Origin: a virus
Taxonomy: Duplodnaviria > Heunggongvirae > Uroviricota > Caudoviricetes
Strand: one strand, 5' to 3'
Virus record (IMG/VR): IMGVR_UViG_2778261056_000004
Coordinates: 1-42,285 of that record
DNA length: 42,285 nt
Shown here: piece by piece, positions 9,413-24,017 of the stretch
How the letters are laid out: every line of letters starts with the position of its first letter
Numbering within the stretch: position 1 is the stretch's first letter
Notes under the pieces: generated by a model
The model's input: the letters and a program-made list of their open reading frames with translations, nothing else
Databases searched by the model: none
Told to the model about the DNA's origin: nothing
Program-made: the position numbers and the translations under genes

Positions 9413-12105
9413 TATCGTGCCTTCCTTTTTGCGTACATGACATTAACCGCGTCATGAACTTTCCCCTGCCCTTTCGACAAGCTATTTACGACCATATTAA
9501 ATCCCTGGGTCGCCCCGCGTTTCACAGCCGCTTCCATCATCGCAATTGTCCGTGCATCAGGATCCCCATTAACCTGGATAGTTGGCGAATAGCTAAACTG
9601 GCCCTGAATGGCGTTATTTTCGCGTTGTTTCTGAATATCGGTGAGAGTCGCATCCAGTTTTGCTGAGGTATTAGACTTCACGACTCGCTCACCTTGCTGA
9701 AGCAACCAAGTCCCCGTCGCGGGAACCTTATCGAGACCATCGTGAGCCATACCCATTAGAGAGGCCGCTGATATTGCCGCAACCATTGGTGATGTTACTG
9801 CCGCAGCAGCAGCCATGGCGCCAGGAGCCAGCGCGGGTCCAACAATAGGGATCGCCGCAGTAGAAGCGTAGGCGTTTAATTGGGCCATTAATGCACTGGC
9901 CGTGGCATTGCTGGTCATGGCTGCCGCAGCGGATGCCTGCGTGCCTTTTCCTACCATCAGTTGAACGGCTTGATAAACCAACCATTGGGCTGCCATTTGC
10001 GTTAGGGTCTGAATTACCGCCTCACCCATGCCAACAAACATGTTGCTGAAGGCATCCCCAACGGATTGGGCCTGGGTAATAATGCCCGTGAAAGCATCAG
10101 CCATGGAATTTGTGGTTTGGTTCAGCAGGGTCGATGCTGAATTCGCTGCCGTTTGATTATAGTTTGAAGCCTCATCGGCGAAATTCGCCATGGATGTTAA
10201 TGCACCAGCTTGCCAGTTCTGCCTGATTGCGTCCTGCTGGCCATAATAATTTCTGAGTGCCGTTAGTTCATTCTGGTAGCCTTTATCGCTTTCATTGCCG
10301 CCCGCGTTTTTCCATCCCTGTAGGAGTTGAGCCTCCTCAAGACGGCGTTGCGCCTGGCGGCTGCTCATGCCAGCACTATCGGCAAGCGCGCTGGTTTTCT
10401 CACCCATCTGAGTCACATATTTCTGCGATGTGTCCTGCAGGCGATTGAGACGTTCCTGTATGACGATCTGATCACCCAATCTGGCATTAATTTCTGCCTG
10501 CGCGAGGACTTTATCTTTGCTGGCGAGTACAGATTTTTCATCATCAGTTAGGGTTCGCGTTTTCGCAGCTTGCTCGAGAACCGTAAATCTGGCCTGATCT
10601 TTCCACAATTGCTTGCGCTGCTGACTGATCTTGTCGTTGATTCCGGAGTGCTGCCGCAATACCTCCAGCTGAGCTTGCAACTCCAGAGACTGGGCACTGG
10701 TACTGTCGGTAAGTTTTGCGCCGACCGGCGTCGTGATTTTCGCTGGCTTCTTAAGCGAGTCCTCATATTCCTTTTTCGCTGCGGCCAAATTGATGTTGTA
10801 ATCAGCCTGGAGGATCCGGCCCTCTTTCAACGCTTTGTTCAGTTCGCTCTGACGAGCGGTGTACTTCTCCAGAGCCGTCTGCGTTTTACCGTAATTCGCC
10901 TGGGCCTGTTGCGCGTATTTGAGGCGATCGGCTTCTAATCCTGCTTCACGGGAAGCGTTTTCCTGGGCGAGTTGAGAATTTCTGGCCTGTTGCTGCGCCA
11001 TATCCAGCGCCTGGCGAGCGGTCTCACGGTCGTTCCAGAAACGTGCGCGCGCGTCATCGTTGACATAACGATCACCCTTTCGCAAATTCCAGATGTCATC
11101 CGCCCGCTTGAAAGCCGCCTCGGCCTTACTCAGCATTTCCTGAGAAGTATCAGGCCTGCCAATATCCAGTGCCGCATCCCACATGGATTTGAACGCATTT
11201 TTAAGGGAGTCTGCGGCCGATTCAATCGTCCCCATGTTGTCGCGGATGCTGGCAGTCTGCTTATTGAACCCGGCGGTTGCTGCTTCGTTTGCCGCCTGCA
11301 GTGCCCCTGCTTCATTTCCTGAGCGCTGCAGAGCGGCAACATATTCAACCTGCTCAGCCGTGACATTGTGAAACTGCTGCGCCATCGCCAGCAGCCCTGA
11401 CGCCGGGTCGTTGACCATGCGTCCAAATGCTTCAGCCACCTTATCGACCGGCAGACCGGATGCATCCGTAAATTTCGCGACCGAGATCGCAAGCTCTTCG
11501 AAGTTAGCACCCGCGCGAACGCCGGCATTAACAAGCGCAGTCAGTGCCTGGCTGGTCTGGTTGAAGGTAAGGCCCGCTTTCTCTCCGGCAGCTGCTATGG
11601 TCTGCATGCGAACAGCTGTGAGGCCAGCAGTATTGCCGGTCAATGTCAGCGTTTTATTAAATTCAGAGAGTGTGCTCGAGCCCTGATAATACGAATACAT
11701 CAGCGCCGCGGTGCCAGCAGATAACACGCCTACTCCGAGCATTACAGGGGAGATCGTTCCCAACAAAGCGCTGAACATAGGCCGCAGACCACCAAACTGG
11801 TCTTTAATTTGCCCGCCCTGCTGGAGCATGATCAGCCAGGGACTCTGCCCGCCGGCCAGCTGCGTCGCGATATCAGTGAACTGCGCCGGCAGGGTACGCA
11901 TCGCGGAAGAATACTGACCGACAGAAATCCCGGCTCGCTTTGCAGCCAGTTCCTGCTTCGAAAATGCTTGCTGAACCTGCAAGGCTGCATCATTTGCCGC
12001 TTTGCCTGTTCCCTTCAGCTGCTTATTTACATAGGTAACCTGCTCAGTAAATTTAGCCGAATCAACATCAAGGTTAACGATCAGATCACCCACTGACTGG
12101 GCCAT
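9412..12105 (-). CDS. tail tape measure protein
   Basis: 897 aa, long alpha-helical Ala/Gln-rich protein with C-terminal Gly/Ala-rich hydrophobic segment; strong RBS GGGAGGAG; follows G/GT chaperones. Confidence 0.8.
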   Translation of the reverse strand: MAQSVGDLIVNLDVDSAKFTEQVTYVNKQLKGTGKAANDAALQVQQAFSKQELAAKRAGISVGQYSSAMRTLPAQFTDIATQLAGGQSPWLIMLQQGGQIKDQFGGLRPMFSALLGTISPVMLGVGVLSAGTAALMYSYYQGSSTLSEFNKTLTLTGNTAGLTAVRMQTIAAAGEKAGLTFNQTSQALTALVNAGVRAGANFEELAISVAKFTDASGLPVDKVAEAFGRMVNDPASGLLAMAQQFHNVTAEQVEYVAALQRSGNEAGALQAANEAATAGFNKQTASIRDNMGTIESAADSLKNAFKSMWDAALDIGRPDTSQEMLSKAEAAFKRADDIWNLRKGDRYVNDDARARFWNDRETARQALDMAQQQARNSQLAQENASREAGLEADRLKYAQQAQANYGKTQTALEKYTARQSELNKALKEGRILQADYNINLAAAKKEYEDSLKKPAKITTPVGAKLTDSTSAQSLELQAQLEVLRQHSGINDKISQQRKQLWKDQARFTVLEQAAKTRTLTDDEKSVLASKDKVLAQAEINARLGDQIVIQERLNRLQDTSQKYVTQMGEKTSALADSAGMSSRQAQRRLEEAQLLQGWKNAGGNESDKGYQNELTALRNYYGQQDAIRQNWQAGALTSMANFADEASNYNQTAANSASTLLNQTTNSMADAFTGIITQAQSVGDAFSNMFVGMGEAVIQTLTQMAAQWLVYQAVQLMVGKGTQASAAAAMTSNATASALMAQLNAYASTAAIPIVGPALAPGAMAAAAAVTSPMVAAISAASLMGMAHDGLDKVPATGTWLLQQGERVVKSNTSAKLDATLTDIQKQRENNAIQGQFSYSPTIQVNGDPDARTIAMMEAAVKRGATQGFNMVVNSLSKGQGKVHDAVNVMYAKRKAR

Positions 12106-12394
12106 AGCGCACTCCTCCCAGGCTTTCCGCCACAGACATCATTACATCATCATCCATCGGCAAATCTTCCTGCTCTGGTGGGTTAAGCAGGCTGAAGTCA
12201 CGTGGGGTTAATTCGGTTTCTGTACACAGCATTGAGACAATAAGATGGCTGAGGCGGGAGAAATGGGTATCCAGAAGATCACCTTCAAAATACTGCTTTT
12301 GATAGTAGCGCCCCCATTCCGCCAGCTCACTTGATGACATGCCGGCAAGCATGACGCGCCAGTCCGGTCGCCGGAACTCCCGCGCCAGCTTCAT
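12086..12394 (-). CDS. tail assembly chaperone T-like reading frame (expressed as G-T fusion by -1 frameshift)
   Basis: ORF is in the -1 frame relative to the G-like ORF and is open across the G stop; lambda G/GT arrangement. Confidence 0.5.
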   Translation of the reverse strand: MKLAREFRRPDWRVMLAGMSSSELAEWGRYYQKQYFEGDLLDTHFSRLSHLIVSMLCTETELTPRDFSLLNPPEQEDLPMDDDVMMSVAESLGGVRYGPVSG

Positions 12395-12414
12395 TACAAA
12401 GCTCAGCTCACCGG

Positions 12415-12840
12415 CTAACGCTTTTCCGCGCTGATGGGCTCGTCTTCCACCACTACGTCTGTACTTTTATCCTCGTCTGCCGGTGCCGGTGCCGGTTTAG
12501 GTTCCGTTACAGGGATCATGTCAGACAGCGTTTTTACAAAGAGTTCGCCAGCGCCAATCATTCCCGGCGGCCAGCCGGAAAGCACCTCATGATGCAGTGA
12601 ATCAATATCTTTTGAGGTATCACCCTGCCAGAGCGACATTGCGATCAGTCGCGCCCCAACCCGGAGATTGCTGCTTACCCGGATCGTAAGATAATCCTCA
12701 TCACCTTCATCTTTCGGGAGCGATTTATCTTCCTTCGCCAGGTACTGCAGATGCTCAATACGTTGCAGGCCTGACAACTCAAATAACTGGATGGTGTTGC
12801 CGTTATAGGTGAACGGCTCAGATTTCAGAAAGCTCATGGA
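12415..12840 (-). CDS. tail assembly chaperone G-like (alternative start at 12918)
   Basis: Acidic C-terminus; lies between major tail and tape measure genes; ends GCG GAA AAG CGT TAG with potential slippery GGAAAAG. Confidence 0.55.
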   Translation of the reverse strand, partial: SMSFLKSEPFTYNGNTIQLFELSGLQRIEHLQYLAKEDKSLPKDEGDEDYLTIRVSSNLRVGARLIAMSLWQGDTSKDIDSLHHEVLSGWPPGMIGAGELFVKTLSDMIPVTEPKPAPAPADEDKSTDVVVEDEPISAEKR

Positions 12841-15254: not shown

Positions 15255-17285
15255 TTACTTACCGGATGATTTCGCCAGACCGCGATAATCCAGCGGCGCC
15301 ACACCAGCATCGATGCGGACTTTCGTCGCAACACCATCAGTGGTGAAACCTTCCTGCTGGTCGATGTACGGGGCATCAATGCCATTGAGGTACGCCACTT
15401 CGATGGTATCGGTGCCCTGTGCGGCAGCCAGATACCAGGCCGCCGGATCGGCGTCATCCAGACGCGCTTCTGCGATCACTTCGGCAAAGTTCTGCAGCGG
15501 GTTAACCACGCCGGCATTGATATCAGCCCCTTTCACGCTTGCTGACTTAATGGTCTGGCTGGCTAATGTTTCCAGACCCACCGGAACCAGCATGTAGGCC
15601 GGACGAATGTTCAGGGCGCGCTCGCCCTCTTTCTGCTTGCGCATGTTCTGGCGGGCCTTATCCAGGCTGTCAACGCTGATGGCGCCAGCTGAAAGGTTGG
15701 CATGGTCAGCATGGAAGAGCGCCTTACCATCCGACAGTTTCCCGTTACCGGTCAGCACGGCATAGACCAGGTCACCGATTGTCGCTTTTGCAGCGCGCCC
15801 CATCTTCATCGGAACGTCTGTCAGCTGGTTCAGGTCATCGTTGATAATGGCCTGGCGGGTGATGGAGAAGATCTCACCGTAAGTAGCCAGCGCGATGGTT
15901 TCACCCTTATCCTGCGTGGTGATGTACTTATACTCCGCGCCCTCTCGCACCTGACGCAGGGAAGGGAAGCCGCCCATGCCGACGCGATGCGCCGTTTTGA
16001 AGTCAGACAGCTGGCCTTTTTTGGTCCAGAGTTCAAAGGTCTCTGCCGCTTCATCCCAGCCCTGCAACAGCGCTTTATTGGCGACATCGAGCAGGATATT
16101 GCCAAAATCGGAGGTGCTGTGCGTCAGCGCAAAACCAACCATCTGCATCGGGTTGTAACTGGAGACCCCGATGCCGCGCTCGGTCAGGGACATGCGGGCG
16201 TATTCGCGCAGCGTCATACCGTTATAGACGTTGTCGCGCTCAACATTTTCATAACCGGAACGCGCCATCAGCGCCTGGCGGATCCCGTCGCCAACAAAGT
16301 TACCGTTGCCGGCATACACATGGGCCTGACCCTGCGTAGTGGTGTTGGACGGCGTGGCATTTTTACCGAGCTCTGCCAGAAGAACATCTTTCGCCTGGCT
16401 GACCGAGCACTCTGGATCGGCAATACATTTAGCCTGCAGCTCCTGATGCTTTCCGCCGAACATGGCGAAGAGGTCCTGAATACCGTTCACGCGTGCCTTT
16501 TGCTCCGCAATAACCTGCGCACGGATATCTGTTTCGCTGGCACCTGCCGCCGGAGCTGGCTGGGTGGCAGTTGGCTGCTGTGTTTCGCGCGTAGCGGTAT
16601 TGCGCGGCGGGGTGACCATGTTGCGAATGCTGTTTGGCATCTTTTCAAATTCCTCAATACGTTTCGAATGGATGCAGGCCATTGCCTGCAAGGATGGTGT
16701 GACCTGGTCAGCGAAGCCCAGCTCCAGACATTCAGTGCCGGAGAGCCAGGTCTCTTCCTCCAGCATTGCCGCAATTTCTTCGGTGCTTTTTCCCGTCTTC
16801 TGCGCGTATGCCGGGATCAACACCGACTCCACTTTGTCGAGCAGGTCGGCGTAGTCGCGCATGTCATCAGCATCACCACCCGCAAAACCCCACGGCTTGT
16901 GGATCATCATCATGGTGTTTTCCGGCATGATGACCGGATTTCCTACCATGGCGATGACTGATGCCATTGAGGCAGCCAGACCGTCGATAAAAACGGTGAT
17001 CGCGGCGCCGTGGAATTTCAGGGCATTAAAAATGGCGATACCGTCAAAGACATCGCCACCAGGGGAGTTGATATGCAGTTTGATGTGAGTTACGTCGCCC
17101 AGCGCCTTAAGGTTTGCGACGAACTGCTTCGCCGTTACCCCCCAGTAGCCGATCTCGTCGTAGATGTAGATTTCGGCTTCGTTTTCCGAACTGGCCTGCA
17201 TACGGAACCAGCTATTTTTTGCCTGGGCTTTCGGGCGGTTCTTTACCCGGTTTTGCTTCCTGGACACGAGTGTCTCCTTTGTCAT
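15255..17285 (-). CDS. fused prohead protease (ClpP/S14-like)-scaffold-major capsid protein (HK97 fold); start ATG 17285, GTG 17270 or ATG 17201
   Basis: ClpP-like segment IYIYDEIG...HINSPGGDV...AASMASVIAMVG...MMIHKPW, then Pro/Thr/Gln linker and coiled-coil, then about 400 aa capsid-like region, all in one frame. Confidence 0.7.
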   Translation of the reverse strand: MTKETLVSRKQNRVKNRPKAQAKNSWFRMQASSENEAEIYIYDEIGYWGVTAKQFVANLKALGDVTHIKLHINSPGGDVFDGIAIFNALKFHGAAITVFIDGLAASMASVIAMVGNPVIMPENTMMMIHKPWGFAGGDADDMRDYADLLDKVESVLIPAYAQKTGKSTEEIAAMLEEETWLSGTECLELGFADQVTPSLQAMACIHSKRIEEFEKMPNSIRNMVTPPRNTATRETQQPTATQPAPAAGASETDIRAQVIAEQKARVNGIQDLFAMFGGKHQELQAKCIADPECSVSQAKDVLLAELGKNATPSNTTTQGQAHVYAGNGNFVGDGIRQALMARSGYENVERDNVYNGMTLREYARMSLTERGIGVSSYNPMQMVGFALTHSTSDFGNILLDVANKALLQGWDEAAETFELWTKKGQLSDFKTAHRVGMGGFPSLRQVREGAEYKYITTQDKGETIALATYGEIFSITRQAIINDDLNQLTDVPMKMGRAAKATIGDLVYAVLTGNGKLSDGKALFHADHANLSAGAISVDSLDKARQNMRKQKEGERALNIRPAYMLVPVGLETLASQTIKSASVKGADINAGVVNPLQNFAEVIAEARLDDADPAAWYLAAAQGTDTIEVAYLNGIDAPYIDQQEGFTTDGVATKVRIDAGVAPLDYRGLAKSSGK

Positions 17286-18714
17286 TTGCCGGGTCGGTAT
17301 CAAACACCAGCCCCTGTTTACGGTTCTCGTCAACCTCCGCCTTACGGCGGCGCTTAACATCATCAGGATTTGCGCCGCGGGCGCGCACCCATTCACTCTC
17401 TGTCGCAGCACCGCCACGCAGCAGAATTTTCCAGGCGTTCGCCTCTTTGACCGGGTCAATCCATGGCATAACGGGCCCGGAGAACACGGCGCTAAAGAGC
17501 GTGGCTTTATCGACATTTTTCGGGACCGTGATCTCGCCTGAAGCAATCGCCATCCTGAGCCACGCCCGGTACATAGGTCGGGTGATCGCCGCGATGAATG
17601 CGTCCTGAAGAATGAAATAGCCTTCGGTTGACTCCACCAGCTCCTGGCGCTGCGCGCTGTATGTTCCGTCGTAGTTACGGGCGATACTTGAAAAGCTACC
17701 GCGCGAACCAGCGGCCACAGCACGTAGCTGGCCATTACGGAAAGTTTCGAGGTTAGGGTTGGGTCGGTCTGACTTGATCATGCCGATGTCTTCACCCGGG
17801 CGGAGATCGTCAAACAGCATGCCTGGCTCGATGTTTAGCTCCCTTTGACCGCTGCTGCCTTCGTCATAAGTCTGGCCATCACCTTTTTTAATGAACATGC
17901 CCAGTGCCGCAGCAATGCGGGCAGCGGTCAGCTCAGCGTCCTCGTACTCCTTCAGCGCCGAAAGACGCATCAGCACCCCGGCAAGCAGTGAGTTACCCCG
18001 GATTTGATGCAGGCGGCGCATAAACTTCAGGTGAAGCATGTTCTCCGCCTGAATATCCTTGGTATCTCCCTGGCGCATACCTTCTGCCGGCAGGTTTTTG
18101 TAGACCATGTATCGGGTCGGGCGGCCCCAGTCATTCAGGTAAATGCCCTGGCACAACTTCTGACCCGGCTCTGTCCGCTCCATCGGCACAAAATCCGGTT
18201 CCAGCGCCTCAATCCAGAAAGGAATGTCTGCCACAGGCGACAGACCGTTCCCGGTGCCACTGACCAGCTGCGCGAACACCTCGCCGTCACGTAACCAGGT
18301 CCGGCACATCAGGCGCTCAAGCACTGGTCGGGTGAACTGCCCGGTAACATCGGGAGAAACGGACCACTCCGCCCATTTGGCGCGGATCTGTGTAGCAAGG
18401 TCAGTAGCGATGCCCCCGTTACTCATCAGGGGCTGCGGCTCCACGATGATGCCTTTTGCCCCCACAATGCGCTCTTCGAGTTTATCAAGGATGCCGATCA
18501 CCAGATCGTGGTTACAGTCGAGCCACCGGGCTTGTTCGCGCAGCGATCGCCCGCCGAATTGCGTCAGCTGATTCGCGGAGCGGTTTTCGCGTTTTGCCCG
18601 GTGCGTCCGGGTAGGAATGACAGCCTCATATGCCTGGATCATCAGGCGCGACTTCAGGCGCTCCGCTTTCCAGCCCGGGGAAAACATGCCTATCAGATTA
18701 TCCAGGGCGCTCAT
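17212..18714 (-). CDS. portal protein (lambda gpB-like)
   Basis: 500 aa ORF between W-like and protease genes; acidic/basic C-terminal tail; lambda-type gene order. Confidence 0.8.
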   Translation of the reverse strand: MSALDNLIGMFSPGWKAERLKSRLMIQAYEAVIPTRTHRAKRENRSANQLTQFGGRSLREQARWLDCNHDLVIGILDKLEERIVGAKGIIVEPQPLMSNGGIATDLATQIRAKWAEWSVSPDVTGQFTRPVLERLMCRTWLRDGEVFAQLVSGTGNGLSPVADIPFWIEALEPDFVPMERTEPGQKLCQGIYLNDWGRPTRYMVYKNLPAEGMRQGDTKDIQAENMLHLKFMRRLHQIRGNSLLAGVLMRLSALKEYEDAELTAARIAAALGMFIKKGDGQTYDEGSSGQRELNIEPGMLFDDLRPGEDIGMIKSDRPNPNLETFRNGQLRAVAAGSRGSFSSIARNYDGTYSAQRQELVESTEGYFILQDAFIAAITRPMYRAWLRMAIASGEITVPKNVDKATLFSAVFSGPVMPWIDPVKEANAWKILLRGGAATESEWVRARGANPDDVKRRRKAEVDENRKQGLVFDTDPANDKGDTRVQEAKPGKEPPESPGKK

Positions 18715-18959
18715 CGCGGGAACCTCGCCAGTTTAAAGGAGCCACCCCTGCCCGTTGCGGCAGCCACGGCAGCAGCCTCTTTTCGCTCCCACTCCTGGCG
18801 GCCCTTCCGGATTTCACTCAGGTTCTCCATGGTCATCTGCTGACCATTAAACGTGATGGACTTGCCCTGCAGGACCGCCATTTCCGCTTCGGTATAACGG
18901 CGGACCATGTCCTGAATATCATTGAGATTCACACCCAGCCTCCTGATGATGATGACCAT
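18711..18959 (-). CDS. head-tail joining protein W-like
   Basis: 82 aa; located between terminase large subunit and portal as lambda gpW; overlaps portal start. Confidence 0.5.
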   Translation of the reverse strand: MVIIIRRLGVNLNDIQDMVRRYTEAEMAVLQGKSITFNGQQMTMENLSEIRKGRQEWERKEAAAVAAATGRGGSFKLARFPR

Positions 18960-19870
18960 GCCGATTCACGGGCTGGCTTCGTAGCCTTTGGCTCTGATAC
19001 TGGCGGTTTTGCAACCGGCGGCGGTGCCACTGGAGGCGCGTCTGGCGATGGCTCAACCACCAGATAACTCTCCCGGCGCGCCCACTCAGGCGCATCAGGC
19101 CACTTAATTTTTTCGTAACCATGAAGAATGACCAGGGCATGCGCGTAAACCATAAGGTCAAATGCTTCGTTAGCCCCCTTACCAGGCTTCGTCCATTTCC
19201 CATCAGCTGATCGCTCCTCATAGGTCAGTTCGTCGTAAAACCACCCTCCCAGCCAGTCAGGGAAATGCACGTAGTTCGGCCCCGGCACATCGCGCCACAG
19301 CGCGTTATTGATCCGGTCTTTCAGTGCGTTGGTCTGGAGAAGGTAGAGAGGGACATCACCGGCCGCCTTCGCGCGCCGGGCAGAACGCCCGGTGTTATCC
19401 GGGTAGGTTTTGGTAATCAGCTTCGCCCGGGTCTGGCTGTCACCCTTGAAAAGCCAGACTTTGCGCTGCAGACCGTCACGGCGACAGCGCCGCCAGAACT
19501 CATAGGCATTGTCGGTAACGCCATCTTCACCACCGGAGTCGACGGCCATGGCCAGGAGGCTCATTCGCTTGCCCGGTTCGCCATCAAGCGCCCAGGTTTT
19601 CTCCAGCACATCGGTGCGCAGCAGATCCCAGTCCTCCGGGTAGCTGGCAGGATCGATGTGGTAGCTTTCACCATCTGGCGTGGTGCGCATCGACTGCATG
19701 ATGTTGTACCGGTCAACCACCCACCGCTCGCCGTGGGCGCCGTAGCCAACAACCTGCACCACAAATCGCCGGTTTTTACCGCCCTGAACATCGACGGTCG
19801 CCAGCAGGCACGCGCCGCCGTTCAACCGGTTCGGCGCGCTGCAGCAGTTCGTCACCTTTGCGTTGCTCAA
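18929..19870 (-). CDS. terminase large subunit, C-terminal (nuclease) fragment; frameshifted relative to the N-terminal fragment
   Basis: LLATVDVQGGKNRRFVVQVVGYGAHGERWVVDRYNI aligns with lambda gpA AYLTAGIDSQLDRYEMRVWGWGPGEESWLIDRQII; N-terminal 20 aa of the track ORF are out-of-frame read-through. Confidence 0.6.
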   Translation of the reverse strand: MSNAKVTNCCSAPNRLNGGACLLATVDVQGGKNRRFVVQVVGYGAHGERWVVDRYNIMQSMRTTPDGESYHIDPASYPEDWDLLRTDVLEKTWALDGEPGKRMSLLAMAVDSGGEDGVTDNAYEFWRRCRRDGLQRKVWLFKGDSQTRAKLITKTYPDNTGRSARRAKAAGDVPLYLLQTNALKDRINNALWRDVPGPNYVHFPDWLGGWFYDELTYEERSADGKWTKPGKGANEAFDLMVYAHALVILHGYEKIKWPDAPEWARRESYLVVEPSPDAPPVAPPPVAKPPVSEPKATKPARESAWSSSSGGWV

Positions 19871-21014
19871 TACTTGAGCGCGGGAGATACGGGAGTCCCC
19901 AGTCGGTGTTAATGACCGTCTTCAGCGTTTCTTCGCTGCCGGTCGCTTCGTACTCCTGTTCAGCGGTCAGCAGTTTGTAAACCAGTTGGGCCCAGGTCTG
20001 ATATGCAGCTGCCGGGCCTTCCATCCAGAACGATGCGATACGCGACCGCCGCCCGGCGCCCGTTATTGTTCCGCTGCTGTCGATCTGCTGATCCTCACGC
20101 AGCCAGACACCTTTCATATTCAAAGCGCGTTTCTGACCGGCGGTGATCACCCCGGAGCAGGAAGGGCAATGGATGCAGGCCGCTTCGCTGGCCTTTACCG
20201 GATCGCTGATTTCCCGGTAACCGGTCATCGCCGTCATCTCAGGCTGGAAAAACTCACCACAATGCGGACATGGCCAGTACCAGCGCCTGCGGTCGCCGCG
20301 GTTGTACAGTGACAGAATGCCGGTTGTTGGCGGGGCTTCATGCGCCGAGCTCCGGCGCCACTTCGTATCGCGGATGTCCCGGCCTGGGGAACTCTCCACC
20401 AGCGTCATGCCGGACGACATAAACGTGGTGGTACGCTTGGAGGCCAGGGAAAATGCATCACCTTCCCCGTCGATATCCTCCGGGAAGCGGTCATAATCGG
20501 TCAGGGCGACGCACTTGTAATCCGACGAGGACATGATATTGACCGACGGCCAGCCTATCTTGAGATAGTTACCCGCCCTGAATGTCCTGTCGTAAACGTT
20601 ATTATCGTTCCTGCGGGGACTCAGGCGGGTTGCCACTTCCGGACTGCAACGGAACGTGCGATCCAGTCGTTTCTTCGAGTGCTCGCGGGCCTTTTCCTCT
20701 GTCATCTGAATGATCAGCATGTCAGACGGGTCGCAGACCACGTTATAAACCACCCACCCATCAATCAGGCCAATCGTCTTCCCGGTTCGCGCCGGGCCGA
20801 CAAACACCACTGCGTCATACTCGCGCGACGCCAGGCAGTTCATTGGCTCGAGTACATACGGAGCCAGGTTCGGATCCCAGGGAACGGAGTTACCGGCACC
20901 CATTGGCACGCGCATAAATTTACTGACTGCATCGGCCACCAGCATGCGGCGTGGGGCACGAAGTATTCCAGGGACATCCTTTCGGATCCCCCGGGCAGAT
21001 GCCCGCTTCGCCAT
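19776..21014 (-). CDS. terminase large subunit, N-terminal (ATPase) fragment
   Basis: Walker A-like GPARTGKT; WPCPHCGEFF matches lambda gpA ACPHCGEE; last 15-20 aa are frameshift read-through ending at TAA 19776. Confidence 0.65.
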   Translation of the reverse strand: MAKRASARGIRKDVPGILRAPRRMLVADAVSKFMRVPMGAGNSVPWDPNLAPYVLEPMNCLASREYDAVVFVGPARTGKTIGLIDGWVVYNVVCDPSDMLIIQMTEEKAREHSKKRLDRTFRCSPEVATRLSPRRNDNNVYDRTFRAGNYLKIGWPSVNIMSSSDYKCVALTDYDRFPEDIDGEGDAFSLASKRTTTFMSSGMTLVESSPGRDIRDTKWRRSSAHEAPPTTGILSLYNRGDRRRWYWPCPHCGEFFQPEMTAMTGYREISDPVKASEAACIHCPSCSGVITAGQKRALNMKGVWLREDQQIDSSGTITGAGRRSRIASFWMEGPAAAYQTWAQLVYKLLTAEQEYEATGSEETLKTVINTDWGLPYLPRSSIEQRKGDELLQRAEPVERRRVPAGDRRCSGR

Positions 21015-21514
21015 CAGTCCTCCTCTGGCTCATCCTCCTCCGGTTCTGCGTCCAGCACGCGCTGCGCAATCTGGTCGCGAAGATCGTCAATCACACTCTG
21101 TACGCGGCTGACAGCTGCGGGGTTCAGCGCGCAGTCACGCTCCAGAATGTCCGGTAACGTTTCCAGCACCTGCACCACAGCTTTCGCCATGACAGAAAAT
21201 TCACGGGCCACCTCATCAGCCGGGATTAACTGGCCGGTGTCCTGCTCGAATTTGAGCCGCTCGTTTTCCGCTTTCCAGTGGGCGAGCCTGTCCGAAGGCG
21301 TCATATCGTCGGCGCTGGACGCGACGACGGGTGCCATCAGCTCGGTAAGCACATCGGTGATGAGATAGAGTTTGAGTTTGTTGTTGCTGCCCGGTGCAGG
21401 CTCGACTTGCTTAAGCCTGGCGGCAACGGTCTGGCGATGAACGCCGGTGATCCCTGCCAGCTGATTGATGTTCAGCTTCAGGGTGGAGAGCTCCTGGTCC
21501 ATGATGGTGAACAC
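21014..21514 (-). CDS. terminase small subunit (Nu1-like)
   Basis: N-terminal HTH LKLNINQLAGITGVHRQTVAARLK; acidic C-terminus; stop overlaps terminase large subunit start. Confidence 0.7.
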   Translation of the reverse strand: MFTIMDQELSTLKLNINQLAGITGVHRQTVAARLKQVEPAPGSNNKLKLYLITDVLTELMAPVVASSADDMTPSDRLAHWKAENERLKFEQDTGQLIPADEVAREFSVMAKAVVQVLETLPDILERDCALNPAAVSRVQSVIDDLRDQIAQRVLDAEPEEDEPEED

Positions 21515-22240: not shown

Positions 22241-22540
22241 CTACGGCTTTGTGGTGCTCACGATATACGAGTCCACCACGCCATCCTTGTTTACTTTGAC
22301 CACCAGCGATTTACCCTGCCCTACGCTGAATGCAGTTGCGTGAGCGTAGGTCCAGCCATAGATTTTATTCCCTTCGGAATCGGCGGTTATTGAGGTTGGC
22401 TTACCAAACTTCTGCAGAACAGTTTGCTCTGTCGTGACCCCTTTTTGGATTGAGGCGACATCTGCCTCCGAAAAATCTTTACCAACTGTCGCGCAACCTA
22501 CAAGGCCTAAAGCAATGATGCCTAGAATTGTCTTTCTCAT
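22241..22540 (-). CDS. lipoprotein, moron-like
   Basis: Signal peptide with lipobox LVGC (MRKTILGIIALGLVGCATV); RBS AAGGGA; terminator-like hairpin downstream. Confidence 0.55.
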   Translation of the reverse strand: MRKTILGIIALGLVGCATVGKDFSEADVASIQKGVTTEQTVLQKFGKPTSITADSEGNKIYGWTYAHATAFSVGQGKSLVVKVNKDGVVDSYIVSTTKP

Positions 22541-22769
22541 TGATATATCCCTTATTTCAAAAAGGACAATCCTACCACCGAGCTATCTGAAGCGCGAAAA
22601 TTACATGGCCTGCGATAAAACCTTTGTGATCAGTGCAGAGCGTAAAGTGTCTGTGGTTGCCGCACAGCAGCCGCGAACACGAGAAGTCTTTGGTGTGCGT
22701 GGCGGCATATCTACCCCAAAAACACAGGCGAATACACGTGTGCCAAGTTTTCATTAGCAACATAAATGT

Positions 22770-23264
22770 TTAATTAGGTTTAAATTTATACGCACCAGAA
22801 ATGAATGGCTTAGAAATAAATGGGATGAGCAATTCGGCTATCTTTTCTCGATGCACTTGCCCTTGCATGTATTCGCCATGCCTGTTGTAAAGCGCATGAA
22901 ATTGCTGCCCTATTTCGTTCGTGTCAAACGTAACCTCCATTAATGTTACATAGAGATAAATTTGATTCATCGCGTCTTGAAGTAGCAAGGCGGGCTGACG
23001 GCAGTTTGGGTCTGATGGTTCAAGAGTTTCTGGCATCATAATAAGCAAATTACGATAATTAATCAGGGCAGCCTTTAACGCTTTTTTTTCGTTGTGCTTC
23101 TCTTGCTGCTTCCACGTATGCAGGGCTCGAAAAGCTACGCAGGCAGCTACCAACGTAATAATCCCTGAAAACCATGTTCCCAACACGGACCATAGCGCCC
23201 AATCAGCAGCCTCTCTACTGGCGACAAGCGCCTCATACGCAATATAATTGGCGTCCATTACCAC
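22770..23264 (-). CDS. hypothetical single-pass membrane protein
   Basis: One hydrophobic helix WALWSVLGTWFSGIITLVAACVAF then a soluble domain; AT-rich island. Confidence 0.4.
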   Translation of the reverse strand: MVMDANYIAYEALVASREAADWALWSVLGTWFSGIITLVAACVAFRALHTWKQQEKHNEKKALKAALINYRNLLIMMPETLEPSDPNCRQPALLLQDAMNQIYLYVTLMEVTFDTNEIGQQFHALYNRHGEYMQGQVHREKIAELLIPFISKPFISGAYKFKPN

Positions 23265-23354
23265 CTCGCAATATTCATTGCGGTGATTGTAGCCAAAAAT
23301 ACAATCACAGGCACTCGATGAATACCTGCTCTACTGCCGCACCATGATGGCAAT

Positions 23355-23377
23355 AAAAAACCGCCCGGAGGCGGTTT
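23355..23377 (-). terminator. rho-independent terminator (minus-strand orientation)
   Basis: Minus strand AAACCGCCTCCGGGCGGTTTTTTATTG: stem AACCGCC/GGCGGTT plus T tract. Confidence 0.45.
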
Positions 23378-23465
23378 GAGATACATGAAAATATTTCATG
23401 TTGAATTAAGAATTTTCGCACCAATATCAGATTTGCCCAATCCTAGATAACCTCTGGAAAATCCT

Positions 23466-24017
23466 ATGATTCATACTGTTCATTTTTTATGCCCAGTTTC
23501 TCCAAGTACAGTGAGCTTGCTTCAAAACAATATTTTGTCAGCAATATCTCAAGGGGCAACCCGAATCAACCTGCACATTTCGAGTTCTGGCGGCGACGTA
23601 ACATCCGGCTTTACCGCTTATAATTTTATTAAAACCCTACCCATTCCCGTTCATTGCTTCAACATCAGCAATATCGATTCAATTGCTAATGCAATTTTTC
23701 TCGCCGGAACTAAGCGGTTTGCAAATCACGGAGCAAGATTTTTGTTGCATCCTTTCCAGTGGAACTTCGGGGGAATGCAAAGCGTCGATCACGAACGAAT
23801 GCGCGAATGGGTATCTAGCTTAGATCACGATCTTGACCGTCTCGTTTCTATCTTTAACGAGGAAACTGTTTCCGCTGGAGAACTCACTGACTGGCGTGAG
23901 TTGATCAGAACCTCTTCCATTTTGAACCCTGAAAGAGCTGCCACTCTCGGCCTTATTGAAGGTATTCAGGAGGCTAGCATCGTTGAACCCAATGCTACCT
24001 GGTGGATAAATTGTTGA
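23466..24017 (+). CDS. stand-alone ClpP/S14-like serine protease homologue
   Basis: INLHISSSGGDVTSGFTAYNFIK resembles ClpP and the prohead protease HINSPGGDVFDGIAIFNALK; candidate Ser (DSIANAIFLAG) and His (FLLHPF). Confidence 0.55.
   Translation: MIHTVHFLCPVSPSTVSLLQNNILSAISQGATRINLHISSSGGDVTSGFTAYNFIKTLPIPVHCFNISNIDSIANAIFLAGTKRFANHGARFLLHPFQWNFGGMQSVDHERMREWVSSLDHDLDRLVSIFNEETVSAGELTDWRELIRTSSILNPERAATLGLIEGIQEASIVEPNATWWINC

What the first reader, a model, noticed from the sequence alone, without database searches (positions are those of the whole stretch)
19776..19870. Terminase large subunit split into two overlapping ORFs by a +1 frameshift
Frame A (19776..21014) carries the ATPase part and frame B (18929..19870) the nuclease part. 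Homology to lambda gpA switches frame within GAACCGGTTGAACGGCGGCGCGTGCC; one extra nucleotide is present relative to an intact gene. This is either an inactivating mutation (packaging-defective, domesticated prophage) or an assembly error.
Basis: seen in the sequence. Interest (0 to 1): 0.5.

Follow-up and report, generated by a model that had tools for sequence, protein, structure and literature searches.

The report
Prophage terminase broken by 17-bp deletion
The large terminase gene of an otherwise complete lambda-like E. coli prophage was recently broken by a 17-base deletion between two short repeats, an ordinary first step of prophage decay that most likely stops the phage from packaging its DNA.

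Summary
The split is real. Minus-strand ORFs 19776..21014 (412 aa; gpA ATPase plus the start of the nuclease domain) and 18929..19870 (rest of the nuclease domain) are two frames of one lambda-gpA-type terminase large subunit gene.

The lesion is not an extra base. Copies of the same prophage in other genomes match the window at all 2,086 nt of the gene and differ only by 17 extra nucleotides. The ancestral CCTGC-TGGCG-TCAACTTCCTGG-TGGCG-ACC has become CCTGC-TGGCG-ACC (retained repeat at window 19799-19803). This is a typical slipped-strand deletion between 5-bp direct repeats. It removes Gly405-Leu409 at the start of strand beta-1, which carries the invariant Asp, and shifts the frame.

- **Not an assembly error:** a second NCBI assembly (GCA_013365735.2) is identical over 21 kb, deletion included.
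- **Not programmed recoding:** 162 of 163 related loci, and every near-identical prophage copy examined, read through in one frame.
- **No sign of domestication:** the 17 other late genes compared keep one reading frame, and the prophage carries no extra substitutions.

By analogy with T4 gp17 and lambda gpA, packaging is most likely lost; this is inferred, not tested. The finding is ordinary and of low interest.

The parts
18929..21014 (-). Whole terL (lambda gpA-type terminase large subunit) pseudogene: 2,086 nt where intact alleles have 2,103 nt (700 aa).
   Evidence: Re-inserting the 17 nt restores a 700-aa ORF.
19776..21014 (-). ORF1, 412 aa (RefSeq WP_244568603.1). Residues 1-404 are authentic TerL: the TerS-proximal N-terminus, the ATPase with Walker A GPARTGKT at residue 73, and the region up to the nuclease beta-1 strand. 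These are followed by an 8-residue out-of-frame tail GDRRCSGR and a stop codon.
18929..19870 (-). ORF2 frame (313 aa from TTG at 19870; 308 aa from GTG at 19855 = WP_244568602.1; 298 aa from TTG at 19825 as called by the collection's gene caller). Authentic TerL sequence starts at ...ATVDVQ (from about window 19803 downward): the nuclease domain plus the C-terminal tail. No Shine-Dalgarno-like sequence is visible upstream of any candidate start.
19799..19803 (-). Deletion junction: the single retained copy of the direct repeat TGGCG. The ancestor read CCTGC TGGCG TCAACTTCCTGG TGGCG ACC, and 17 nt (one repeat copy plus the 12-nt spacer) are missing.
21014..21502 (-). Small terminase (DUF1441 family, 162 aa). 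It aligns in a single frame with no gaps (residues 1-152 of 162, 94.7% identical to L081). Its stop overlaps the terL start.
17212..18714 (-). Portal protein (Phage_portal_2, 500 aa), intact. The identical allele sits next to an intact 700-aa TerL in all 10 other places shown.

Best explanation
The terminase large subunit gene (terL, lambda gpA family) of a lambdoid prophage in an E. coli genome (GCA_002229935.1, contig NLNX01000018.1) has a genuine, very recent 17-bp deletion. Replication slippage or microhomology-mediated joining between two copies of TGGCG lying 17 bp apart (9 of 10 matches when extended to CCTG[C/G]TGGCG) removed one repeat copy and the spacer. The deletion removes Gly405-Leu409, disrupts codons 404 and 410, and shifts the reading frame. 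Translation from the normal start therefore gives a 412-aa protein: the TerS-binding N-terminus and ATPase, then 8 out-of-frame residues and a stop. The nuclease domain and the C-terminal region are left in another frame with no evident ribosome-binding site. In lambda that C-terminal region binds the portal. Shown here: the lesion, its uniqueness, its recency and its reality. Inferred: the prophage can no longer cut and package its DNA, so induction would give lysis and empty proheads and tails but no infectious particles, unless an intact terminase is supplied in trans.
For: Lesion: the single 17-nt gap is the only indel against nine intact 2,103-nt alleles. Copies in L177 (Logan SRR18134904) and L174 (GCA_012312645.1) show 0 mismatches over 2,086 nt apart from the gap. 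L168 shows 1 mismatch in about 9.4 kb, and L180 shows 0 in 12.1 kb. Mechanism: the ancestral sequence has TGGCG...TGGCG exactly 17 nt apart and the window keeps one copy. Reality: GCA_013365735.2 is 100% identical over 21,053 nt including the deletion, and the frameshift-specific product is on record in NCBI and Logan. Uniqueness: 162 of 163 related loci span the junction in one frame. In every prophage copy outside the window's own lineage that reached the junction, TerL reads through in one frame. These copies were found through the identical portal, moron or methylase alleles. All 145 full-length homologues keep the invariant spacing VP-x-GV-x-F-x-x-A-TVDVQ. Structure: in the AlphaFold model of the intact homologue the nuclease domain has pLDDT 80-94 and strand beta-1 spans residues 408-416 (FLVATVDVQ), so the deletion removes the start of that strand just before invariant D414. 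The fold matches the Sf6, E217, P22 and T4 TerL nuclease domains. Consequence, from the literature: splitting T4 gp17 at the linker keeps the ATPase and nuclease activities but abolishes DNA translocation (PMC3012670). Loss of only the last 5 residues of lambda gpA abolishes prohead binding and virus yield (PMC4856287).
Against: Loss of function is inferred and was not tested. ORF2 retains nearly all of the nuclease domain: from TTG 19825 the product would begin MNGGACLLATVDVQ, which roughly re-creates strand beta-1. Low-level internal initiation and non-covalent association of the two halves therefore cannot be excluded from sequence alone. I could not see raw reads. I also could not establish whether the two NCBI assemblies are independent isolates or the same strain sequenced twice. 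The ATPase half of the structural model was poor (pLDDT below 50 for residues 1-241), so nothing structural is claimed for it.
Confidence: 0.9

Rival explanations
1. One reading: a single extra nucleotide (+1 insertion) in GAACCGGTTGAACGGCGGCGCGTGCC splits the gene.
For: The downstream frame is displaced as if one base had been added, and the gene length is 2,086 = 3n+1.
Against: Alignment to alleles that are otherwise identical shows no inserted base, only a 17-nt gap. Removing one base gives a 694-aa protein lacking the invariant VP-x-GV-x-F segment, which no homologue lacks.
Confidence: 0.01
2. Sequencing or assembly artefact: the real genome has an intact terL.
For: Only one lineage carries the allele, and no reads could be inspected.
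Against: The same deletion is present in a second NCBI assembly from a different WGS project with different contig ends (79,518 vs 79,394 bp), 100% identical over 21 kb. The frameshift-specific 412-aa and 298-aa products are also in Logan re-assemblies. From general knowledge, a 17-bp loss bounded by 5-bp repeats is a biological slippage signature. It is not a homopolymer-type base-calling error, and 5-10-bp repeats are too short to mislead k-mer assemblers.
Confidence: 0.03
3. Programmed +1 (or -2) ribosomal frameshifting, or another recoding event, produces a full-length TerL from the two frames.
For: The two ORFs overlap by 95 nt in the arrangement that recoding would require.
Against: The arrangement is absent from 162 of 163 related loci and from all near-identical prophage copies. 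It arose by a deletion on a background with zero other changes. Rfam finds no RNA element there. A shift at the ORF1 stop would replace ATVDVQ, including the invariant Asp, with DRRCSGR. Any recoded product would still lack residues 405-409.
Confidence: 0.01
4. The split gene still functions. The two halves might work as a two-piece terminase, or one half might be retained for a host-beneficial role (a domesticated prophage, for example one that interferes with related superinfecting phages).
For: The break falls almost exactly between the ATPase-containing part and strand beta-1 of the nuclease domain. Both halves are free of further stops or indels. T4 gp17 domains keep their individual enzymatic activities when separated (PMC3012670).
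Against: The lack of further decay is explained by recency: there are zero substitutions against intact copies, so nothing can be said about selection since the event. The low dN/dS of 0.04 and 0.12 against L081 reflects history before the deletion. No Shine-Dalgarno-like sequence precedes any ORF2 start. Separated gp17 domains lose translocation completely. The allele occurs in a single lineage.
Confidence: 0.05

Closest known systems
Bacteriophage lambda gpA-family terminase large subunit (Pfam PF05876 GpA_ATPase + PF20454 GpA_nuclease), as in the lambdoid E. coli phages mEp043, mEp213, LLS and Ayreon
   Same: Same two-domain architecture, Walker A motif and invariant TVDVQ strand. Same gene order: DUF1441 small terminase, terL, 73-aa gene, portal, ClpP-capsid fusion. 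The restored protein's close intact relative P0001 is 78-80% identical at protein level to the TerL of these isolated phages.
   Different: In all of those phages the gene is one continuous ~700-aa ORF. Here it is broken by a 17-bp deletion into 412-aa and ~300-aa pieces.
Intact copies of the same prophage in other enterobacterial genomes (e.g. GCA_049927835.2, Logan SRR18134904, ERR10615462, SRR35124530)
   Same: 0-4 mismatches over 8-21 kb, with the same genes in the same order.
   Different: They carry the 17 nt and encode a 700-aa TerL.
Slipped-strand (short direct repeat) deletions producing frameshift pseudogenes in decaying prophages
   Same: The deleted segment equals one repeat copy plus the spacer, one copy is retained, and the lesion disables an essential late gene. 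The same prophage lineage shows another decay route: a 14.3-kb capsid-to-tail deletion in GCA_012312645.1 and Logan SRR9686725.
   Different: Nothing notable. This case is unusually young, with no secondary mutations.
Experimentally split T4 gp17 (ATPase and nuclease domains expressed separately)
   Same: The break lies between the ATPase-containing part and the nuclease domain.
   Different: That system is an engineered construct in a distantly related TerL family. It is used here only as a functional analogy: the separate activities are kept but translocation is lost (PMC3012670).

Membership tests
Lambda gpA-type terminase large subunit | N-terminal GpA_ATPase domain with a Walker A P-loop | tested here: met
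   PF05876 E 8.6e-77 over ORF1 residues 41-304. GPARTGKT at residue 73.
Lambda gpA-type terminase large subunit | C-terminal GpA_nuclease (RNase H-like) domain with the conserved acidic residue on strand beta-1 | tested here: met
   PF20454 positions 1-76 lie in ORF1 and 75-294 in ORF2. TVDVQ with invariant D414. The model's nuclease domain has pLDDT 80-94 and matches solved TerL nuclease domains. Catalytic activity was not tested.
Lambda gpA-type terminase large subunit | Both domains in one continuous polypeptide of about 700 aa | tested here: not met
   Two frames, 412 aa and ~300 aa. All homologues examined have 699-706 aa in one frame.
Lambda gpA-type terminase large subunit | Genomic context: small terminase immediately upstream, portal downstream | tested here: met
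   DUF1441 TerS at 21014-21502 and portal at 17212-18714.
Frameshift pseudogene (disabled gene) | Homology to one protein continues in a second frame, and near-identical intact orthologues exist | tested here: met
   (0 mismatches apart from the 17-nt gap).
Frameshift pseudogene (disabled gene) | The lesion is lineage-specific, not conserved | tested here: met
   It is present only in GCA_002229935.1 and GCA_013365735.2.
Frameshift pseudogene (disabled gene) | Loss of the encoded function (no DNA packaging) | not testable with these tools
   Inferred from T4 gp17 domain splitting and lambda Aam42.
Slipped-strand deletion between short direct repeats | The ancestor has direct repeats, deletion length equals repeat spacing, and one copy is retained | tested here: met
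   TGGCG repeats 17 nt apart in L086, L164, L087, L188 and L191, with a single copy in the window.
Programmed ribosomal frameshift | Frameshift arrangement conserved among relatives | tested here: not met
   162 of 163 loci read through in one frame.
Programmed ribosomal frameshift | Known recoding signal or RNA element at the shift site | tested here: not met
   No Rfam family at gathering score in the region, and no recognisable +1 shift site on reading the overlap. This is absence of evidence only.

The most novel reading that the evidence does not exclude
The break sits almost exactly at the boundary before the nuclease fold, so both pieces might be made and be stable. The 412-aa fragment keeps the small-terminase-binding N-terminus and the ATPase. 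It could then act as a dominant-negative decoy that poisons terminase assembly of related superinfecting or co-resident phages, giving the host a selectable benefit. Nothing here supports this beyond the position of the break, and the allele's single-lineage distribution and extreme youth argue for simple decay.
Probability: 0.03. Interest if true: 0.45.

Novelty: already known. Interest (0 to 1): 0.1.

Why it matters
There are three practical consequences.

- **Annotation:** RefSeq lists the two pieces as separate proteins, both named 'terminase gpA endonuclease subunit' (WP_244568603.1 and WP_244568602.1), although the first is mainly the ATPase. They should be a single frameshifted pseudogene.
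- **Prophage calling:** tools that score this element by gene content would call it intact, while it is most likely unable to package DNA.
- **Prophage decay:** this is a clean, datable first hit. The same prophage exists base-for-base with an intact TerL, with this 17-bp deletion, and with a 14.3-kb capsid-to-tail deletion in different genomes.

No new biology is implied.

Tried and rejected
- **Distant homologues:** comparison with E. coli complete genomes and the phage collection gave only ~74-75% identical genes. They showed the window to be 17 nt shorter between conserved motifs, but could not separate one 17-nt deletion from a natural shorter linker plus a 1-nt insertion. Closer relatives were needed.
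- **Deletion allele in metagenomes:** an exact search for the deleted junction found nothing.
- **P0126 lookup:** I got round this with IMG/VR loci, a gapped DNA pattern, and lookups of neighbouring window proteins.
- **Tail protein lookup:** window:8466-8966 had no exact record, probably because the called start differs.
- **Solved structures:** a sequence search of the PDB with the intact homologue found nothing, so a model and a fold search were used. The ATPase half of the model is unreliable and was not used.
- **Repeat finder:** it did not report the 5-bp repeat because its minimum seed is 6. The repeat was read directly from the alignments.
- **Hypotheses rejected:** programmed frameshifting and a functional two-piece terminase were considered and rejected, as set out under the rival explanations.

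Full report
**1. The observation**

On the minus strand, ORF 19776..21014 (412 aa, ATG start) and ORF 18929..19870 (313 aa from the first TTG) exist exactly as reported and overlap at 19776-19870. Pfam assigns the first ORF GpA_ATPase (E 8.6e-77, residues 41-304) plus positions 1-76 of GpA_nuclease. It assigns the second ORF positions 75-294 of GpA_nuclease (E 1.3e-63). One domain model is therefore cut at position 75/76 and continues in another frame. tblastn with two intact E. coli homologues (701 and 703 aa) aligns residues 1-405 in frame +1 and residues ~404-end in frame +2. The split terminase is real and far beyond chance.

**2. What the lesion is**

Between the conserved RAEP and TVDVQ motifs the window has 55 nt where the ~74%-identical homologues have 72 nt. 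That is 17 nt fewer, not 1 more.

A protein search found an intact 700-aa relative in Leclercia (P0001, 97% identical). Its DNA (L081, 95.4% identical) aligns to the window gene with one indel only, a contiguous 17-nt gap in the window. Closer copies from IMG/VR and metagenomes gave the same single gap: L086 with 15 mismatches, then L164 and L087.

I then looked up the window's exact portal protein, a neighbouring moron protein and a methylase, to find other genomes that carry this very prophage.
- L177 (Logan SRR18134904) and L174 (GCA_012312645.1) have terL with 0 mismatches over all 2,086 nt, plus the 17 nt.
- L168 has 1 mismatch in about 9.4 kb, L180 has 0 in 12.1 kb, and L188 and L191 have 3-4 in 18-21 kb.

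The ancestral junction reads GTGCCTGC TGGCG TCAACTTCCTGG TGGCG ACC, and the window reads GTGCCTGC TGGCG ACC. The two TGGCG copies lie exactly 17 nt apart. Extended to CCTG[C/G]TGGCG they match at 9 of 10 positions. One copy is retained, at window 19799-19803. Re-inserting TGGCGTCAACTTCCTGG restores a 700-aa ORF with the junction PVERRRVPAGVNFLVATVDVQ.

This is the signature of slipped-strand or microhomology-mediated deletion.

**3. Real or artefact?**

The window is 100% identical to NCBI GCA_002229935.1 contig NLNX01000018.1. A second NCBI assembly from another WGS project, GCA_013365735.2 contig JABWMZ020000018.1, has a different contig length (79,518 vs 79,394 bp) and different ends. It is 100% identical to the window over 21,053 nt including the deletion, and no TerL protein is called there.

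The 412-aa product can exist only with this deletion, because of its out-of-frame tail. It is on record from NCBI and from Logan re-assemblies of raw reads. An assembly artefact is therefore very unlikely. I could not inspect reads, and I could not tell whether the two assemblies are independent isolates.

**4. Programmed or conserved?**

No. Of 163 related loci fetched from genomes, viral contigs and metagenomes, 162 span residues 385-430 in one frame. The exception (L063) is a gene that aligns only over residues 1-335. All 145 full-length homologues keep the same spacing, VP-x-GV-x-F-x-x-A-TVDVQ. Rfam finds nothing at the site. Shifting at the ORF1 stop would replace the invariant ATVDVQ by DRRCSGR.

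**5. Structural position and consequence**

An AlphaFold model of the intact homologue, built on a 42-sequence alignment, is poor for the ATPase half (pLDDT below 50 for residues 1-241) but good for residues ~400-660 (pLDDT 80-94). Strand beta-1 spans residues 408-416 (FLVATVDVQ). Foldseek matches the TerL nuclease domains of Sf6, E217, P22, T4 and HCMV. The deletion removes G405-L409, the start of beta-1 just upstream of invariant D414, and shifts the frame.

ORF1 therefore encodes the N-terminus and the ATPase (Walker A GPARTGKT at residue 73) followed by 8 out-of-frame residues. The nuclease domain and C-terminus lie in ORF2, whose candidate starts (TTG 19870, GTG 19855, TTG 19825) have no Shine-Dalgarno-like sequence upstream.

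The literature supports loss of packaging:
- Splitting T4 gp17 at the inter-domain linker keeps the ATPase and nuclease activities but abolishes translocation (PMC3012670).
- In lambda, loss of just the last five residues of gpA (Aam42) abolishes prohead docking and virus yield (PMC4856287).

Packaging deficiency is thus a strong inference, but it was not tested.

**6. State of the rest of the prophage**

Eighteen late genes of the Leclercia prophage were compared with the window: holin, endolysin, small terminase, terL, portal, ClpP-capsid fusion, decoration and head-tail proteins, Z, U, tube protein, G, T and tape measure, among others. terL alone is broken. The other 17 each align as a single HSP in one frame. 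Fifteen align over their full length; the small terminase and tape-measure alignments end 10 and 3 residues short of the C-terminus.

The early region is also present and is 100% identical to the sister assembly. It includes the CI-like repressor, Cro, a CII-like gene, replication genes, Dam, Q and the integrase. Against L081 the two halves have dN/dS of 0.04 and 0.12 and no further stops or indels. Against identical-background copies there are no substitutions at all.

The deletion is therefore a very recent, isolated first hit. There is no evidence for long-term domestication.

**7. Comparison with what is known, and verdict**

The gene belongs to the lambda gpA terminase family in every feature except continuity of the ORF. 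The closest isolated phages are the lambdoid E. coli phages mEp043, mEp213, LLS and Ayreon (78-80% protein identity to the intact relative P0001), and all have a single ORF.

The event is an ordinary frameshift pseudogenisation by short-repeat slippage in a prophage. Its main practical value is to correct the annotation: RefSeq lists two 'terminase gpA endonuclease subunit' proteins. It also flags this prophage as probably non-productive despite its complete gene content. Novelty: already known. Interest: low (0.1).

Noticed in passing
window ~500-2460 (-): Rfam RF02005 at 2228-2453, RT ORF at 636-2123: A group II intron lies at the left end of the prophage, just beyond the tail-fibre gene. 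It has a D1-D4 RNA match (186.6 bits, E 7.5e-55) and a 495-aa RVT_1 reverse transcriptase. Part of window 1-25000 matches 217 E. coli records at 99% identity or more, with 232 places on plasmids. The matching part was not identified; the mobile intron is the likeliest candidate. I did not determine the intron boundaries or whether it interrupts a gene.
   Followed up: partly
L174 (GCA_012312645.1) 5568/5569 and L180 (Logan SRR9686725) 12129/12130; window 17146 joined to 2859: The same prophage, with 0 mismatches and an intact TerL, occurs in other genomes with a 14.3-kb internal deletion. The deletion runs from inside the ClpP-capsid gene to the 3' part of the GDSL tail-fibre gene and removes the capsid and tail genes. 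It is a second, independent decay route in the same prophage lineage.
   Followed up: partly
window 18929-21014 (RefSeq WP_244568603.1, WP_244568602.1): RefSeq carries the two fragments as separate proteins, both named 'terminase gpA endonuclease subunit', although the 412-aa one is mainly the ATPase. In the sister assembly no TerL protein is called at all. The annotation of one allele is inconsistent.
   Followed up: yes
window 22241-24017: A low-GC insert (45.5% GC against about 55-59% in the flanking late region) lies between the lysis genes and the small terminase. It holds a 99-aa ORF (22241-22540, -), a 162-aa ORF with no Pfam match (22770-23258, -) and an oppositely oriented ClpP-like 183-aa ORF (23466-24017, +; PF00574 E 1.1e-12). 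It looks like a moron cassette. The Leclercia relative L081 lacks the ClpP-like gene and has a DUF2513 gene in that position instead.
   Followed up: no
L166 16382-20831 (beyond window 42285) and L174 8683-9503 (beyond window 1): The host flanks show where the prophage sits. Next to the integrase are an AIDA-type autotransporter, a response regulator (Response_reg + GerE) and CcmH. Beyond the intron end is a DUF3413/sulfatase gene. From my own knowledge of the E. coli K-12 map this resembles the yejM-proL-yejO-narP-ccmH region, which suggests integration near tRNA-Pro proL. The att sites were not examined.
   Followed up: no
window 12089-12837 (-): The tail assembly chaperone pair (Phage_TAC_2, 140 aa, followed by Phage_tail_T, 102 aa) is present and intact. 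In lambda-like phages this is where the genuine programmed -1 frameshift (G/GT) occurs. The slippery site was not examined here.
   Followed up: no
L063 (Enterobacter vonholyi NZ_VTUC01000017.1) 3001-4005: This is the only related locus in which TerL homology does not cross the junction region. The match ends at residue 335. It may be a different truncation or a mosaic.
   Followed up: no
window 15255-17735 (-): The mechanical 826-aa ORF is longer than the called 670-aa ClpP-protease/major-capsid fusion gene (window 15255-17267). Its first ~156 codons overlap the 3' end of the portal gene and are probably not translated.
   Followed up: partly
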